This document shows positions 12,925-55,340 of a stretch of 64,000 bases of DNA, piece after piece. Origin of the DNA: an uncultured Clostridia bacterium (GTDB lineage: Bacteria > Bacillota > Clostridia > Christensenellales > CAG-314); NCBI GenBank assembly GCA_947586855.1, contig CANPXV010000003.1, forward strand, positions 24,274 through 88,273. Direction: 5' to 3'. Each line of letters opens with the position of its first letter. Within the stretch, counting starts at the first letter, position 1. The position numbers and the translations under genes are program-made. Below the pieces are notes generated by a model. That model was not told where the DNA came from, made no database searches, and saw only the letters and a list, made by a program, of their open reading frames with translations.

Positions 12925-13175
12925 CTATCCCCCTCCCACAAAAACCTCTTTCCCCGCCCCTGTCTCCCTCGCCCTCTTTCCCTTACCTTCTCTCTTCTCT
13001 CCTCTTCTCTTTTTTCCTATCATTTTCTTATTTATCCCTCTCGCCCTTTTCTTCTTTATTTAATTTTTTCTCCTTGTTTTTTTCTTTTATTTCTCACGTA
13101 AGTTTCTTTTCTTCCTCTCTCTTATTCTCTCTTTACTAAATTTCCCATTGTCCCTAAAACCCCGCCCTATGTCTG
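12922..13175 (+). repeat. polypyrimidine (C/T) tract, family member 1
   Basis: About 250 nt almost devoid of purines on the + strand (ctttcccttaccttctctcttctctcctcttc...). Starts at the terminator T-run. Confidence 0.8.
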
Positions 13176-14574: not shown

Positions 14575-14600
14575 AGCCTCGCCCTGTGCGAGGCTTTTTT
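14575..14600 (+). terminator. intrinsic terminator
   Basis: AGCCTCGC-cctgt-GCGAGGCT followed by TTTTTT. Confidence 0.7.
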
Positions 14601-14784
14601 CTTCTTTTTTTTCGTCCCTTTTTATTTCTTCTTCTCTTCCTCTCCTTTTTTCTTTATCCTCTCTCTTCCTTTCTCTCTTCCTTTCCCATCTTCTTTTCTT
14701 TCTCTTCTCTCTTCCTTTCTTTCCCATCTTCTTTTCTTTCCTCTCCTCTTTTCTTTTTCTGCTCTCTTCCTTTTCTTTTTTTTC
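14596..14784 (+). repeat. polypyrimidine (C/T) tract, family member 2
   Basis: About 190 nt of C/T-only sequence beginning in the terminator T-run. Internal near-repeats (cttcctttc(tt)tcccatcttcttttctttc appears twice). Confidence 0.8.
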
Positions 14785-14880
14785 GGCACAGAGTGGGCGC
14801 AAAGGCTGGACGGGTAGGGTACACTCTAAACAAAAATCTTAGTAAAAATAAAAATTGTTTAGAATAACTAATCAAAACGT

Positions 14881-36866: not shown

Positions 36867-37249
36867 CCCTCTTGCCCTGCGATTTAGTACGTAGTGTGGT
36901 GGTGCAAACTCGCCGTCGAATCGCTTGCGCCTTGTTTCTCTTCCTCTTCTTCCCTCTTTTCTTTTCTCTTCTTTTTTTTCTTTCTTCTTTTTCCCTTATT
37001 TTTTTTCTTTTTCACCCTCTCTTCTCTCTCTTTTTTCCCTTTCCGTCCTTCCTTTTATTTTCTCACCCCGACCATTTGCTGTTTTATGTAATACAGTGGA
37101 GTAATGTTTTCGCCGCCATCATATCGATTTTACCCCGTCTCAGCCTCTCCTTTCTCTTCTTTTTTCTTTTCCTTCTTCTATCCCTCTCCTCTCTCACGCC
37201 CTCTATCTGCCCACAGCCCTTTTGCCGCATCGCATATGATACAATTTTA

Positions 37250-37278
37250 TTGACATCTGCCGCAAAGTGATATATACT
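37250..37278 (+). promoter_or_regulatory. promoter of candidate sRNA 2
   Basis: TTGACA (37250-37255), 17-nt spacer, TATACT (37273-37278). Flanks are near-identical to the sRNA 1 promoter. Confidence 0.5.
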
Positions 37279-37284
37279 TATAGA

Positions 37285-37368
37285 CAGTTGAACGGCTTAT
37301 GTGCGTTCATTCCCGCCAACTCACTTGTGGCATTGCCCCGAACGGATTAGCTTCGGGGACTTTTTTTG
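37285..37368 (+). ncRNA. candidate small RNA 2 (about 84 nt), paralogue of sRNA 1 with divergent 5' body
   Basis: Same promoter and the same terminator (CCCCGAA...TTCGGGG plus TTTTTTT, 37336-37367). The 5' 50 nt or so differ strongly from copy 1. Confidence 0.4.
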
Positions 37369-38551
37369 CCCACTTGCCCTGCGATTTAGTACGTAGTGTG
37401 GTGGTGCAAACTCGCCGTCGAATCGCTTGCGCCTTGTCTCTCTTCCTCCTCTTTCTTTTCTCTCTTCCTTCCTCTTTTATTTCTTTTTTTTTCTTTTCCC
37501 GCTCCCCTTCTCTTTCACTCTTTTCTTATTTCTCTTTCCCGCCCGTTTGCTGTTTTTTTTGTGTAGCGCAGTGGTGCGTTTTTGCTGCCATCTGGTCGCC
37601 CCGTTCCAGCTTCTCCTCTCACTTCTTTTTTTTCCTTCTTCTATCCTCTCATCTCTCCCACCCGCTACCCGTCCACAACCCTTTTCGCCACCTCTTGCCC
37701 AGCGATTTTGTACGTAGTGTGGTGGTGTCATATTTACGCCGTCGAATAGATTGCGCCATGTCTCTCTTTTTCTTTTTTTCTCTCTTCTTTCTCCCTTATT
37801 TTTTCTCTCCTTTTCTTTCCTCTCCCTTCTCTTTTTTTATTTCTTCCTCTCTTTCTCTTTTCTTTTTCCTTCCCCACCTGTTTTCTGTTTTTTGTGTAGT
37901 GTAGTGGTGCGTTTTTGCTGCCATCTGGTCGCCCCGTTCCAGCTTCTCCTCTCACTTCTTTTTTTTCCTTCTTCTATCCTCTCATCTCTCCCACCCGCTA
38001 CCCGTCCACAACCCTTTTCGCCACCTCTTGCCCAGCGATTTTGTACGTAGTGTGGTGGTGCAAACTCGCCGCCGAATCGCTTGCGCCATGTCTCTCTTTC
38101 TCCTCTTTCTTTTCTCTCTTCCTTCCTCTTTTATTTCTTCTCTTTTCTTTTTCCGCTCCCCTTCTCTTTCACTCTTTTCATATTCCCTTTCCCGCCCGTT
38201 TGCTGTTTTATGTAATATAGTGGTGTAATTTACCAACGCCATCGTATCGATTACGCCCCGTTCCAGCCTCTCTCTTCTTTTTTTCCTTCTCCTTTCTCTT
38301 TTTTTTATTTTTTCTCTTTTCCCCCTCTCCTTTTTTTCTTATTTCCCTTCTCTCTTTTATTTTTTATCCCTTTTATCCTCTCTTTTTTCTTCTTTGCCGG
38401 TCGGAATTTTGGTACAAAGGGGCGAATGAATAAATATGCAAAGGCGATTTATAAATATGCAAAAAAGCGCATAAACATACAAAATATTCTGTATAAACAA
38501 TTTTTCTTGCAAAAACCGTTGTTTTCGGGTGAATAAATATAAAAATAGTTA

Positions 38552-49658: not shown

Positions 49659-49733
49659 TGGCTCCCCGTGTTGGGTTTGAACCAACGACCCTCCGGTTAA
49701 CAGCCGGATGCTCTGCCGCTGAGCTAACGAGGA
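49659..49733 (-). tRNA. tRNA-Asn (anticodon GTT), CCA encoded
   Basis: Manual fold: acceptor TCCTCGT/ACGGGGA, D-arm AGCTCAGCGGCAGAGC, anticodon stem TCCGG/CCGGA with loop CTGTTAA, T-arm GGTTCAAACCC, discriminator G plus CCA. Confidence 0.9.
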
Positions 49734-49750
49734 ATATCAATTGCGTTTAT

Positions 49751-49779
49751 ATCCTACCACCTGCGGCGCAAAATGTCAA
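49751..49779 (-). promoter_or_regulatory. possible tRNA-Asn promoter
   Basis: On the - strand: TTGACA (49779-49774), 17-nt spacer, TAGGAT (49756-49751), 17 nt before the tRNA 5' end. Confidence 0.4.
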
Positions 49780-50029
49780 ATGTTTTTATGAAAAAATTTT
49801 TCCGCAGCCCTTTTTGCGGTTCGCCCGATGTTTTTGCGCTGTCCGATCGCCTTCCATCGCCACCGGATAGCAGCGGTGTTATAGCTTACCATGCGATGGA
49901 AAAGTAAGCGCAAGAGGTTTGCAATTTCTATGATAACGACCTGCGCACATGTCAGTACCGCAAATGACATAAAAATATGCATAATACCTTTTGGATAATA
50001 AAAGCGGTGCAGTAGCTATCCTAAAACCA

Positions 50030-50512
50030 TTTCCTCTCCCATTCTCTCTTCTTTTTTTTCTTTTTCTTCTTTTCTTTTTATTATTTTTTTTTATTCTTTT
50101 TCTCTCGTTCGTTTCACCCCGTACCTCTTCTTTTTTTCTCCCCCTTTCCTTCTCCCTCTCTTTTCTTTCTTTTCCTTTTTCTTTTTTTTATTCATTTCTT
50201 TGATTTTTTCTCTTGTTCGTTTCTCCCCGTCCCCTCTCTCTTTCTCTCCTCTCCACTTTTTTTTCTTCCTCTCCCTTTCTCTCTTCTTTCTTTCTTTTCC
50301 TTCTTCTTTTTTTTATTCCTTTCTTTGATTTTTTCTCTCGTTCGTTTCACCCCGTACCTCTTCTTTTTTTCTCCCCCTTTCCTTCTCCCTCTCTTTTCTT
50401 TCTTTTCCTTTTTTTATTATTTTTTTTATTTATTTCATTCTTTGATTTTTTCTCTTGTTCGTTTCTCCCCTGTCCCCTCTCTTCCTCTCCCCTTCTCCCC
50501 TTCTTCTCGGCA
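50030..50512 (+). repeat. polypyrimidine tract array with about 115-125-bp internal periodicity
   Basis: The box TTTGATTTTTTCTCTYGTTCGTTTCWCCCCGTMCC recurs at about 50100, 50200, 50325 and 50443, alternating in two variants. The header AGCGGTGCAGTAGCT at about 50003 precedes the tract. Confidence 0.85.
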
Positions 50513-50638
50513 TACTGCGCATTTTTGCGCATAAAATATACAAAAATACAAAATTTTCGACAAAAGTTGCCATGTTCGCAGCGCAAAAATTGCATTATAA
50601 TATAGTTGCGCATGGGCAAAACGTCAAGGGGGATAGAC

Positions 50639-51391
50639 ATGGTCAAGCAAACGGTGGTGGCCGTTGCGGTGACGTTGGTATGCGTGATGCTGGTATGCGG
50701 CATGGGCGGATATGCCCAGGTGTACGCCAACGGACGTTCGGTGCCCATTTACAGCGTGGATCGGCAGGACAATCTGGTGTCCATCAGTTTCGACGCCGCC
50801 TGGGGAGCGGACAAAACTCGGCAAATAATGGATGTTTGCGACAGTTACGGCGTCAAAGCCACCTTCTTTCTGGTGGGATTTTGGGTGGACAAATACCCGC
50901 AAATGGTGGCGGAAATCGCCTCGCGCGGTTTCGAGATAGGCACGCACAGCGCCACGCACCCGCAGATGAGCAAGCTGACCGAGCAGCAATGCCGAGAGGA
51001 ACTGCTGACAAGCAGCAAAAAGATATTCGAAATCACCGGCGCCCCCGTGCAGTTGTTTCGGCCGCCCTTTGGCGACTACAACAACACATTGCTAAGCGTG
51101 GCCAAAGGTCTGGGGCTGTACACCGTGCAGTGGAGCGTGGACAGCCTGGATTGGAAGGGCCTATCCGCCGTGGAGATAGCGCAGCGAGTGCAGCAGGCGC
51201 AAAGCGGCGACATCATATTGTGTCACAACAACAGCGACCACATAGTGGAGGCGTTGCCCCTAATTTTTGAGGCGATGCGTTTCAAAAATCTGCAATTTGT
51301 ACCCATAGGGCAGCTCATCTATCGCAACGGATACACAATCGACAGCAGCGGCCGACAGCGGCAGGACAAATCCGCCAACACCCTGTTGTAA
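50639..51391 (+). CDS. polysaccharide deacetylase (NodB homology domain), secreted/membrane-anchored
   Basis: N-terminal TM/signal, then VSISFDAAWG, KATFFLVG.W, IGTHSATHP, LFRPPFGDYN - the NodB motifs. Confidence 0.8.
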   Translation: MVKQTVVAVAVTLVCVMLVCGMGGYAQVYANGRSVPIYSVDRQDNLVSISFDAAWGADKTRQIMDVCDSYGVKATFFLVGFWVDKYPQMVAEIASRGFEIGTHSATHPQMSKLTEQQCREELLTSSKKIFEITGAPVQLFRPPFGDYNNTLLSVAKGLGLYTVQWSVDSLDWKGLSAVEIAQRVQQAQSGDIILCHNNSDHIVEALPLIFEAMRFKNLQFVPIGQLIYRNGYTIDSSGRQRQDKSANTLL

Positions 51392-54274: not shown

Positions 54275-54424
54275 TGTGTACCTCTCAGGGCGGCTATTGC
54301 CCCTTTTGTGACGTCGGCAGGGACGAGCAAGCGCCCATCTGTCCCCGACGCATATTATCTAATTATACAGTATAGCAAAAAGAACGTATTTTTTCAACAC
54401 TTTGCGCCCAATTGCAACAAAATT

Positions 54425-55155
54425 TCCTCCCCTGCCCCCGCTTTCTCCCTTTTCCCTCTCTTTTCTCTTTCCCTCATTCATTTATTATTTTATTCTTTTC
54501 TCACCCAAACATATTTTTTCTCTCATTCTCTCTTGCCCCTCTCGCTTTTCCCCTCTCCGCTCTTGCTTTCTTTTCTCCCCTCATAATAGAGGGGCATTAT
54601 TTCCTGCAATAAAGTAGAAAAAGTGATTGCAAGGGTTGTGCGATCTCAAAAATAACAAGCGCACATGCCCGTTGCGGCAAAAGATGTTGTGCAAATGACT
54701 TAAAAAAATGTGGTGATAGCTTTTTTATAGATAACAGCGGTGCAGCAGCTTTCAAACTCGCCCCGTCCCCCTCATCTCTCCCATTCTCTTCCTTTTCTTT
54801 CTCTTCCCCTTTCCCCCTCTTCCTTTCTTCTTCCCATTTTCTTTCTCTCTTCCTCTTCTTTCTTTTTTCACTCTTTTATTTTTTCCTATTCTTTTTTATC
54901 GTTCGTTTCTTCCCGCCCCTCGCTCGGAATTTATGTCGCCGTGTGCGAACGAAATAAAATTATTTGCCGCCGCCCGCCCCTCTCTCCCTCTCTTCTCACT
55001 TCCTTTCTCTTCTTCTTTTCTCTCTTTTTCTCATTTTTTTCTTTCTCTCTTCTCTCTTCTCTCTTATTTCCCCCTCTCTTTCTTTCTTCCCTCCCCTCTC
55101 TTTCTTCTTTTTCTTCTCTTTCTTCTCCCCTTTTTTCTTCTTTCCATCTCTCGCT
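54425..55155 (+). repeat. three polypyrimidine tracts (54425-54590, 54757-54925, 54975-55155) in a divergent intergenic region
   Basis: C/T-only runs. The header AGCGGTGCAGCAGCT at about 54735 followed by CTCTCCCATTCTCT matches the header of the 50-kb array. A GTTCGTTTCTTCCCGCCCCTC box lies at about 54900. Confidence 0.8.
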
Positions 55156-55340
55156 CAAAAAAATTTTCAAAAAAAAGTGTAAAATTTTGAAAAAACTGAC
55201 AGACAGTTGGCAACATTGATGTGCTATTATACTATCGAATAGAACAAACGTTCGATAATTCGCCTTGCCCCGATAGGCGTCTCAACGTTTGAGGCTATCA
55301 GTTTTCGGTACGCAGCACACGGCAAAAGGAGGTGAGCAAG

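What the first reader, a model, noticed from the sequence alone, without database searches (positions are those of the whole stretch)
50030..50512. 480-bp polypyrimidine array with alternating A/B sub-repeats and a conserved header
The tract is internally periodic. The box TTTGATTTTTTCTCTYGTTCGTTTCWCCCCGTMCCYCTC recurs four times, at about 50100, 50200, 50325 and 50443. Two variants alternate, giving a super-period of about 235 bp.

The tract opens with a header, GATAA-N-AGCGGTGCAGTAGCT...CTCTCCCATTCTCT. This header is shared with the 54.7-kb tract and is related to the AGTGGTGCR A-box.

Here the tract lies between a - strand tRNA and a + strand gene, so nothing upstream is transcribed into it. 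It is nevertheless still pyrimidine-rich on the + strand. All tracts in the window share this polarity. That points to a replication-strand or element-intrinsic orientation rather than a purely transcriptional one.
Basis: seen in the sequence. Interest (0 to 1): 0.6.

Follow-up and report, generated by a model that had tools for sequence, protein, structure and literature searches.

The report
One-stranded C/T repeat tract between genes
A 480-base stretch made almost only of C and T on one DNA strand is real and internally repeated; it belongs to 13 such tracts private to this gut bacterium that all point the same way along the chromosome, and it is most likely young, unstable filler DNA that can stop transcription in one direction.

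Summary
Window 50030-50512 is 92% pyrimidine. It holds four copies of the box in two alternating variants, an (A-B)x2 duplication with 233/242-bp spacing. Its header has one paralogue, at 54.65 kb.

Genome-wide there are 13 such loci.
- All are pyrimidine-rich on the strand that carries most genes and the genome's most skewed octamer family, AGTGGTG(C). The header's AGCGGTGC belongs to that family.
- In a near-complete relative this motif flips at the skew-defined origin and terminus.
- Twelve of the 13 loci map to one stretch of about 156 kb on one replichore.
- Forty congeners lack such tracts, including at three syntenic spacers.
- Among 300 other Clostridia no genome comes within ten-fold of this load.

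The tracts are the genome's top predicted Rho substrates: unstructured, C>>G and U-rich. Rho is encoded.

Polarity cannot be assigned to replication rather than transcription here, because 12 of 13 downstream genes are co-oriented with their tract.

Best reading: fast-evolving low-complexity DNA, tolerated in one orientation only, which acts as a one-way Rho stop.

The scan had already described the sibling array upstream of gyrB (e1-3555861).

The parts
49659..49733 (-). tRNA-Asn(GTT), the upstream neighbour, transcribed away from the tract
   Evidence: ARAGORN and Rfam tRNA at 64.9 bits. It is syntenic upstream of the deacetylase gene in 6 congeners.
49751..49779 (-). Promoter-like site of tRNA-Asn (TTGACA-17-TAGGAT with TG)
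   Evidence: Consensus scan, 10 of 12 positions.
49930..50029 (+). Header, a non-repetitive lead-in shared with 54650-54745. It contains AGCGGTGC at 50003-50010, a member of the polar RGYGGTG motif family.
   Evidence: MAFFT alignment at 79% identity. Only two copies in the genome. Motif skew.
50030..50512 (+). Polypyrimidine tract: 92% C+T, G 3.5%, organised as (A-B)x2
50097..50180 (+). Unit A1: 84 nt identical to A2, containing the box core at 50100-50120
   Evidence: Exact repeat with spacing 233.
50196..50228 (+). Unit B1 core: 33 nt identical to B2, with the box core at 50208-50228
   Evidence: Exact repeat with spacing 242.
50330..50413 (+). Unit A2
50438..50470 (+). Unit B2 core
50554..50565 (+). 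TTTTCGACAAAA box upstream of the deacetylase promoter. It is ancestral spacer sequence, not part of the tract.
   Evidence: Present in near-identical form upstream of the orthologous gene in 5 congeners whose sequence was inspected.
50591..50601 (+). Extended -10-like TGCATTATAAT of the deacetylase gene
   Evidence: Read from the sequence. The orthologues have TGNTAYAAT at the same place.
50639..51391 (+). Polysaccharide deacetylase gene, the downstream neighbour with its own promoter
   Evidence: ORF. Orthologues in 40 of 40 congeners.
54420..55160 (+). Sibling locus: three polypyrimidine runs, with the paralogous header at 54650-54745
36919..38402 (+). Sibling locus: the largest array, upstream of gyrB, with 333-bp units and P/Q boxes carrying GTGGTGC
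14589..14791 (+). Sibling locus that starts at the T-run of the upstream gene's terminator hairpin
12943..13095 (+). Sibling locus that starts at the T-run of the upstream gene's terminator hairpin

Best explanation
The tract is young, fast-evolving low-complexity DNA that grew inside a pre-existing spacer of about 300 bp.

How it grew. It expanded by slippage of short C/T motifs and by tandem duplication of larger units; the last step was duplication of a 233-bp A-B pair. It is one of 13 such expansions private to this species. They spread locally within one chromosome segment.

Why the polarity is uniform (inferred). Only one orientation is tolerated: pyrimidines on the strand that is both the sense strand of most genes and the leading strand. 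In that orientation any transcript crossing the tract is an unstructured, C>>G, U-rich RNA. This is the preferred substrate of Bacillota Rho and cannot form stable R-loops. The purine strand also stays out of the lagging-strand template.

What it does. The by-product activity is a one-way, Rho-dependent stop for rightward transcription in front of the next gene's own promoter. At this particular locus nothing obvious is transcribed rightward into the tract, so it probably does little here.

Status of the steps.
- Shown: the anatomy, species-private status, in-situ growth, uniform polarity, clustering, and the extreme Rho-target composition.
- Inferred: actual Rho termination, and the selective filter on orientation.
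For: In-situ growth.
- tRNA-Asn(-)/deacetylase synteny is conserved in 6 congeners, with a spacer of about 300 nt against 905 nt here and no tract.
- The ligA-yicC spacer is 235-405 nt in 5 of 5 relatives against 937 nt here.
- The hydrolase-gyrB spacer is 390-760 nt in 3 of 5 relatives against 2067 nt here.

Species-private and extreme.
- No real tract (60-nt pyrimidine window with at most 3 purines) in 40 congeners and relatives; the single hit, in G012, is a poly-C artefact at a contig end.
- Among 300 other Clostridia the highest count is 140 window positions, against 1395 here.

Fast turnover.
- A1 and A2 share 84 identical nt, while A and B have diverged.
- Between the gyrB units the boxes are 91% identical but the C/T parts only 71%.
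- The boxes are private to each locus.

Discrete class. Other intergenic DNA has no pyrimidine bias, at 0.49-0.52.

Polarity. All 13 loci agree with the polar motif and with the gene majority.

Local spread. Twelve of 13 loci lie in about 156 kb; 0 of 400,000 simulations reach this clustering. The two header copies are 4.7 kb apart.

Rho substrate.
- The tract RNA folds at only -15 kcal/mol over 521 nt.
- CG skew is 0.86-0.88 and maximum T is 0.63-0.67, both beyond the genome's 99.9th percentile.
- All 73 of 58,530 fragments that pass both cut-offs lie in tract loci on the leading-proxy strand.
- Rho is encoded over its full length.
- Coding strands are purine-biased on both replication strands, at 52.1% and 53.4%. 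This is the signature that PMC13323073 links to a pyrimidine-specific Rho.

Other points.
- In at least 5 of 9 co-directional loci the first C/T run starts at the T-run of the upstream gene's terminator hairpin.
- Published work shows orientation-dependent transcription blockage when the purine strand is the non-template strand (PMC3561996 and PMC5499740, abstracts seen).
Against: - No transcription data are available.
- At this locus and two others the upstream neighbour is divergent, so there is no read-through to stop.
- 92% purity with a seemingly scrambled C/T order is hard to keep under neutral drift. Transitions outnumber transversions 39:7 in the C/T parts against 5:10 in the boxes of the same gyrB units. 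This hints at selection on composition or at a special generating process, although misalignment could mimic it.
- RGYGGTG boxes are 3-fold enriched in tract spacers and typically sit 10-70 nt 5' of a C/T run. Plain slippage does not explain this.
- Regional clustering could also reflect a regional function.
- Mismatch repair (MutS) is intact, so general repeat instability is not expected.
- In another genome (G131) one purine tract sits on the sense strand, so the proposed orientation filter is not universal.
Confidence: 0.45

Rival explanations
1. Selected transcription insulators. The tracts are maintained because they act as Rho-loading (rut-like) back-up terminators that shield the next promoter from read-through. 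In the reverse direction they act as R-loop blocks against antisense, head-on transcription.
For: - The composition is the genome's extreme by the published Bacillota Rho criteria.
- The tracts sit between intrinsic terminators and the next gene's own promoter in 9 of 13 loci.
- Purity is kept while the sequence is not.
- Rho is present.
- An earlier scan note reached this reading for the gyrB array (e1-3555861).
Against: - Forty congeners do without such tracts at the same spacers.
- Three loci, including this one, have no co-directional upstream gene.
- The lengths (0.1-1.5 kb) far exceed what Rho loading is thought to need (about 80 nt, from general knowledge).
- Placement among spacer types matches chance: observed 9/3/1/0 against a background of 292/100/104/36.
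Confidence: 0.2
2. Replichore-level polar element. The tracts, together with their adjacent Chi/KOPS-like GGTG boxes, act on DNA rather than RNA. Possible roles are a one-sided polar barrier to forks that overshoot the terminus, or fragile sites each guarded by a recombination hotspot.
For: - Polarity equals that of the replichore-polar motif in 13 of 13 loci.
- Twelve loci cluster 75-230 kb from the terminus on one replichore.
- RGYGGTG is enriched 3-fold in tract spacers and lies 10-70 nt 5' of C/T runs.
- From general knowledge, purine-rich lagging-strand templates such as GAA repeats stall forks in an orientation-dependent way.
Against: - No matching set exists on the other side of the terminus; contigs C4 and C5 have none.
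- Mirror symmetry, which H-DNA needs, is no better than in shuffled sequence.
- The tracts are absent from all relatives.
- Motif copies inside tandem units are not independent.
- There is no pyrimidine enrichment next to the motif elsewhere in the genome.
- The G131:C5 tract lies on the lagging strand.
Confidence: 0.1
3. Non-coding RNA gene or array. One possibility is a CU-rich RNA from the + strand, acting as an anti-Shine-Dalgarno-like or Rho/S1 sponge. The other is a GA-rich RNA from the - strand, carrying many GGA and SD-like motifs.
For: - There are - strand promoter-like sites at 50627-50599 (10 of 12 positions) and 50563-50535, and a weak - strand hairpin at 49819-49802.
- An earlier scan note proposes polypurine RNA arrays in another Clostridia lineage (e1-3551667).
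Against: - No + strand promoter lies upstream, and the header has no convincing -35/-10 pair (read from the sequence).
- The units carry no promoter or terminator of their own.
- There is no Rfam match even at E = 1.
- The sequence is not conserved between loci.
- The candidate terminator is weak: 5 pairs and no clean T-run.
Confidence: 0.08
4. H-DNA or supercoil-responsive structural element upstream of promoters.
For: A long pure purine-pyrimidine duplex lies 60-160 bp upstream of promoters, including the gyrBA promoter.
Against: - The best mirror-repeat arms (12-20 nt) are within the range of shuffled sequence.
- The downstream genes are functionally unrelated.
- A DNA-structure role would not require a fixed strand polarity.
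Confidence: 0.04
5. Assembly artefact of a metagenome-assembled genome.
For: The genome is in 36 contigs. The exact 84-nt repeats make the copy number within the array uncertain.
Against: - Tracts lie inside long contigs with syntenic flanks, and no contig ends in a tract.
- The 13 loci have distinct sequences and embedded unique boxes.
Confidence: 0.03

Closest known systems
Rho-utilisation (rut) regions, 'C>G bubbles', and the pyrimidine-rich (high excess C, high %T) Rho targets of Bacillus subtilis (Dierksheide et al., Nat Microbiol 2026, PMC13323073)
   Same: The RNA would be unstructured, G-poor and C- and U-rich. The effect depends on orientation. Rho is encoded. Coding strands are purine-biased, as in species with runaway transcription.
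   Different: The tracts are 0.1-1.5 kb of almost pure pyrimidine rather than a skewed stretch of about 80-150 nt. They are internally repeated, private to one species and clustered in one chromosome segment. At this locus no promoter feeds into the tract. No termination data exist.
Bacterial intergenic minisatellites / VNTR loci
   Same: Head-to-tail units of 108-125 and 233 bp. There was a recent unit duplication, the tracts are absent from relatives, and they are non-coding.
   Different: The composition is two-letter and strand-pure, the polarity is uniform across 13 loci, and only the composition is shared between loci. Strain polymorphism could not be tested.
Mosaic intergenic repeats (BIME/REP of enterobacteria, BOX elements of Streptococcus pneumoniae)
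   Same: Modular intergenic arrays with alternating sub-units and a variable number of modules.
   Different: There are no palindromic or hairpin modules, no conserved module sequence across loci, no associated transposase (one partial Y1 transposase elsewhere) and few copies.
Homopurine-homopyrimidine H-DNA / R-loop-forming tracts of eukaryotes, such as GAA-TTC repeats (PMC3561996, PMC5499740, PMC11667243)
   Same: Long strand-pure purine-pyrimidine DNA, for which orientation-dependent blocks to transcription and replication are documented.
   Different: The context is a bacterial chromosome, the sequence is irregular rather than a simple repeat, and mirror symmetry is not above chance.
Chi / KOPS-type polar oligomers (relevant to the header's AGCGGTGC only)
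   Same: AGTGGTG(C) is skewed 95:4 to the leading-proxy strand whatever the gene orientation, occurs about once per 5 kb, and flips at origin and terminus in a relative.
   Different: The identity of the motif reader (AddAB or FtsK/SpoIIIE) is unknown. The header copy is one mismatch from the top-skewed word.

Membership tests
Rho-dependent terminator / rut region | C-rich, G-poor, unstructured RNA segment of at least about 80 nt | tested here: met
   G is 3.5% and C 32%. MFE is -15 kcal/mol over 521 nt. CG skew of 0.86-0.88 exceeds the genome's 99.9th percentile.
Rho-dependent terminator / rut region | Rho factor encoded by the organism | tested here: met
   C9:1293-2630 matches TIGR00767 over positions 3-414 of 415 at 479.6 bits, just under the curated cut-off of 509.
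Rho-dependent terminator / rut region | The segment is transcribed in the C-rich sense, with a promoter or gene upstream on the same strand | tested here: not met
   At this locus the upstream neighbour is a - strand tRNA and no + strand promoter-like site was found. The feature is met by position at 9 of the 13 sibling loci.
Rho-dependent terminator / rut region | Rho-dependent 3' ends, lost with bicyclomycin or in a rho mutant | not testable with these tools
Minisatellite / VNTR | Head-to-tail repeat units | tested here: met
   TRF period 125 with scores 420-430. Exact repeats of 84 nt and 33 nt at spacings of 233 and 242.
Minisatellite / VNTR | Copy-number variation between strains | not testable with these tools
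   No conspecific sequence was found in genome contigs or metagenome contigs.
H-DNA-forming H-palindrome | Homopurine-homopyrimidine mirror repeat beyond chance | tested here: not met
   The best arm is 20 nt, against a shuffle mean of 14.0 and maximum of 20. Three sibling tracts are at or below the shuffle mean.
Dispersed mobile repeat (REP/BIME, MITE, BOX) | Conserved element sequence and ends across copies, with terminal inverted repeats or hairpins | tested here: not met
   The boxes are private to each locus. There are no inverted repeats of 20 nt or more. The header has only 2 copies.
Catalogued RNA family (Rfam 15) | Covariance-model match | tested here: not met
   No match at gathering score or at E up to 1 over 49740-50660.
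Chi/KOPS-type polar motif (header box AGYGGTGC) | Strong leading-strand skew independent of gene orientation, flipping at origin and terminus | tested here: met
   AGTGGTGC is 95:4. AGTGGTG is 29:2 in minority-strand genes and 34:2 in intergenic DNA. The motif flips with GC skew at about 200 kb and 840 kb in G053:C1.
Chi/KOPS-type polar motif (header box AGYGGTGC) | Recognition by AddAB/RecBCD or FtsK/SpoIIIE | not testable with these tools
   This needs biochemistry or genetics.

The most novel reading that the evidence does not exclude
The polypyrimidine arrays and their adjacent Chi/KOPS-like GGTG boxes form a chromosome-level polar system. It is confined to one segment of about 160-200 kb, 75-230 kb from the replication terminus. 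It lets the normal fork and co-directional RNA polymerases pass but stalls forks or polymerases moving the other way. That would be a protein-independent, sequence-encoded fork and transcription trap not described in bacteria.
Probability: 0.07. Interest if true: 0.8.

Novelty: new variant of a known kind. Interest (0 to 1): 0.42.

Why it matters
Long strand-pure purine-pyrimidine tracts are not a normal feature of bacterial genomes. A survey found such runs merely 'normally represented' (PMC4060949).

This genome carries about 7 kb of them in 13 loci of uniform polarity, more than ten times the load of any of 300 other Clostridia sampled.

If the tracts are Rho stops, they are a natural, extreme illustration of the recently proposed purine/pyrimidine 'hidden code' for Rho in Bacillota. 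They would also be compact one-way terminators for engineering.

If they are merely tolerated junk, their strict polarity gives a read-out of which orientation of purine-pyrimidine DNA a bacterial chromosome can bear.

The by-product finding of a replichore-polar AGTGGTG motif gives a way to orient contigs of this uncultured genus.

Tried and rejected
- **Conspecific DNA.** The box pattern found nothing in genome contigs. The exact deacetylase protein is not on record. The metagenome scan gave at best 75% identity.
- **Mobile-element origin.** There is no reverse transcriptase and only a partial Y1 transposase far away. The tracts have no conserved ends.
- **Mismatch-repair loss as the cause.** MutS is intact.
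- **General mutational pyrimidine bias of intergenic DNA.** Absent.
- **H-DNA.** Mirror symmetry is at chance level.
- **Header as a sigma-70 promoter.** No acceptable -35/-10 pair was found (and reading of the sequence).
- **Long-range helix.** An 11-bp pairing between the header (GTGCAGTAGCT) and the 3' flank (GGCATACTGCGC) closes the tract in the RNA fold, z = -3.0. By eye I found no matching complement at the 54.7-kb sibling locus, so I treated it as chance.
- **Link to the mirrored-skew desert next to rpmH (e1-4599981).** That region is A+C against G+T skewed, not purine/pyrimidine skewed, and the polar motif does not flip there.
- **General coupling of the GGTG motif to downstream pyrimidine runs.** Absent outside the tract loci.
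- **Transition/transversion test for selection on purity.** Suggestive, but confounded by possible misalignment in two-letter sequence.
- **Gene caller error.** My crude gene caller mis-called C7:22447-24552(-); the real genes there are on the + strand.

Full report
**Observation**

Window 50030-50512 is 483 nt with T 290, C 155, A 21 and G 17, which is 92% pyrimidine. The binomial probability at p = 0.5 is about 2e-89. Genome-wide, the median pyrimidine content of 100-nt windows is 0.50 and the 99.9th percentile is 0.91.

The periodicity survives formal analysis.
- The core TTCTCTYGTTCGTTTCWCCCC occurs exactly four times, at 50100, 50208, 50333 and 50450, with the two variants alternating.
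- An 84-nt exact repeat links 50097 and 50330 (spacing 233), and a 33-nt exact repeat links 50196 and 50438 (spacing 242).
- Tandem Repeats Finder reports period 125 with scores of 420-430, and the repeat finder recovers the 233-bp register.
- The tract is therefore an (A-B)x2 array whose last growth step was duplication of an A-B pair.

The header (49930-50029) aligns at 79% identity with 54650-54800. No third copy exists, and the A/B boxes occur nowhere else in the genome.

The upstream neighbour is tRNA-Asn on the - strand, with its own - strand promoter-like site. The downstream neighbour is a + strand polysaccharide deacetylase gene with its own extended -10. No + strand promoter-like site feeds the tract.

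**Genome-wide picture**

The window lies in a 1.47-Mb, 36-contig genome that is 93% complete. A purine/pyrimidine scan finds 13 tract loci: seven on C3, five on C7, and one each on C15 and C2. All are intergenic. I corrected one gene-caller error. After that, the contexts relative to the pyrimidine strand are:

| Context | Loci |
|---|---|
| gene-tract-gene, co-directional | 9 |
| divergent (including this locus) | 3 |
| convergent (one weak case) | 1 |
| both neighbours antisense | 0 |

The background of spacer types is 292/100/104/36, so given the polarity this placement is what chance would give. Other intergenic DNA has no pyrimidine bias (0.49-0.52). The tracts are therefore a discrete class rather than the tail of a mutational trend.

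**Polarity**

The most strand-skewed octamers of the genome are CAGTGGTG (63:1) and AGTGGTGC (95:4).

The skew follows contig polarity regardless of local gene orientation. AGTGGTG is 29:2 in minority-strand genes and 34:2 in intergenic DNA, and it occurs about once per 5 kb. Every contig has one polarity, except C4, which flips at its start.

In the relative G053, whose contig C1 is 1.097 Mb, three signals flip together at about 200 kb (terminus) and about 840 kb (origin): the motif family, the GC skew and the gene orientation. The dnaA orthologue maps to 833 kb. The motif is thus a replichore-polar, Chi/KOPS-like word.

All 13 tracts are pyrimidine-rich on the motif strand. The C2 locus reads as purine-rich only because that contig is assembled in the other orientation.

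It does not separate replication from transcription, because 12 of 13 downstream genes are co-oriented with their tract.

An independent look-alike in another Clostridia genome (G131:C5:50-178) is pyrimidine-rich on the lagging strand but co-oriented with its two downstream genes. Another tract (G131:C7, about 69 kb) follows a - strand gene's terminator. A third (G131:C7, about 113.5 kb) is a purine tract on the sense strand. This small sample leans towards a transcription-linked rule but is mixed.

**Clustering**

Synteny with G053 is high. It orders the contigs as C25-C15-(C12)-C3-C7-C16-C4 along one replichore towards the terminus. Twelve of the 13 loci fall in G053 coordinates 274-430 kb. 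That is about 156 kb, lying 75-230 kb from the terminus. None lies on the other side of the terminus (C4, C5). No simulation out of 400,000 gave such clustering. Together with the two header copies 4.7 kb apart, this points to local spread, or to a regional role.

**Origin**

- No real 60-nt pyrimidine window with at most 3 purines exists in 24 congeners and 16 same-order genomes; the only hit is a poly-C artefact at a contig end of G012.
- At three syntenic spacers the relatives have short spacers without tracts. These are tRNA-Asn/deacetylase (about 300 nt against 905 nt here), ligA/yicC (235-405 against 937) and hydrolase/gyrB (390-760 against 2067).
- The closest species is distant: deacetylase 85% and GyrB 96% amino-acid identity. 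'Private' therefore means private at species-representative resolution.
- In a sample of 300 other Clostridia, 46 have some hit, with at most 140 window positions against 1395 here. About half of the hits I inspected are K/E-rich coding repeats.
- Between the duplicated units of the gyrB array the boxes are 91% identical and the C/T parts only 71%. Composition is kept; sequence is not.
- Neither a reverse transcriptase nor loss of MutS is available as an explanation.
- In at least five co-directional loci the first run starts at the T-run of the upstream terminator hairpin. This is a plausible seed that would also set the polarity.

**Mechanism**

Read as + strand RNA, the tract is essentially structure-free, at -15 kcal/mol over 521 nt.

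Using metrics modelled on those of Dierksheide et al. (PMC13323073), the tract fragments have CG skew of 0.86-0.88 and maximum T of 0.63-0.67. Both exceed the genome's 99.9th percentile. All 73 of 58,530 fragments that pass both cut-offs lie in tract loci on the leading-proxy strand.

Rho is encoded. Coding strands are purine-biased on both replication strands, as the paper's model expects of organisms with a pyrimidine-specific Rho. Rightward transcription entering a tract should therefore be terminated by Rho. Leftward transcription would make purine-rich RNA with the purine strand as non-template. In-vitro work shows that this configuration blocks transcription through R-loops (PMC3561996 and PMC5499740, abstracts seen).

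These are inferences from composition and from published rules.

Mirror symmetry is at chance level, so H-DNA is not specifically supported. There is no Rfam match.

**Verdict**

The tract is real and periodic. It belongs to a species-private, regionally clustered and uniformly polar family of polypyrimidine expansions.

I rate most likely (0.45) that it is young low-complexity DNA, tolerated in one orientation only, whose by-product is a one-way Rho stop. At this divergent locus it probably has nothing to stop. The rivals are selected insulators (0.20), a replichore-level DNA element (0.10), an ncRNA (0.08), H-DNA (0.04) and an assembly artefact (0.03).

Two observations remain unexplained. 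One is the 3-fold enrichment of RGYGGTG boxes 10-70 nt upstream of C/T runs. The other is the confinement of the family to one chromosome segment.

The scan had already described the sibling array upstream of gyrB with a similar reading (e1-3555861). New here are:
- the genome-wide map of the 13 loci;
- the polar-motif and replichore evidence;
- the clustering;
- the class-wide rarity;
- the link to the published Rho specificity.

Noticed in passing
whole genome; for example window 37570-37577, 37896-37903 and 50003-50010 (variant): AGTGGTG(C)/RGYGGTG is the most strand-skewed oligomer family of the genome (AGTGGTGC 95:4). The skew is independent of gene orientation and the motif occurs about once per 5 kb. 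In the relative G053:C1 it flips with GC skew at about 200 kb and 840 kb. It is a candidate Chi or KOPS/SRS-type polar motif of this uncultured genus.
   Followed up: partly
window 50554-50565: The box TTTTCGACAAAA lies just upstream of the deacetylase promoter and is conserved at the same place in 5 congeners whose sequence was inspected. It is a likely regulator binding site.
   Followed up: no
whole genome versus L127-L144: This genome has 53.3% G+C, while three congeners sampled over 120 kb each have 44-46%. That is a large compositional shift within one genus.
   Followed up: no
G000:C8:60400-66000: The gene desert next to rpmH has an A+C-rich arm followed by a G+T-rich arm (keto/amino skew, not purine/pyrimidine). 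The polar motif does not change orientation across it. A partial Y1 (IS200/IS605-type) transposase frame sits at its edge (C8:66207-66344).
   Followed up: partly
window 49853-49900: A nested hairpin, CCATCGC-CACCG-GATAGCAG-CGGTG-...-GCGATGG, lies between the tRNA-Asn promoter and the header. Its function is unknown.
   Followed up: no
L194-L196, L206-L210 (G131:C5:50-178; G131:C7 at about 69 kb and 113.5 kb; G248:C1 at about 203.3 kb and 207.3 kb): Non-coding polypyrimidine or polypurine tracts of 70-160 nt occur sporadically in unrelated Clostridia genomes. One starts right after a terminator hairpin, as in several loci here.
   Followed up: partly
G000:C15 end, C2 start; C7 end / C16 start; C25 end / C15 start: Contig ends overlap (tRNA sequence for C7/C16, a coding stretch for C25/C15) or run into the 16S rRNA leader (C15, C2). 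This, together with synteny to G053, allows a partial scaffold.
   Followed up: partly
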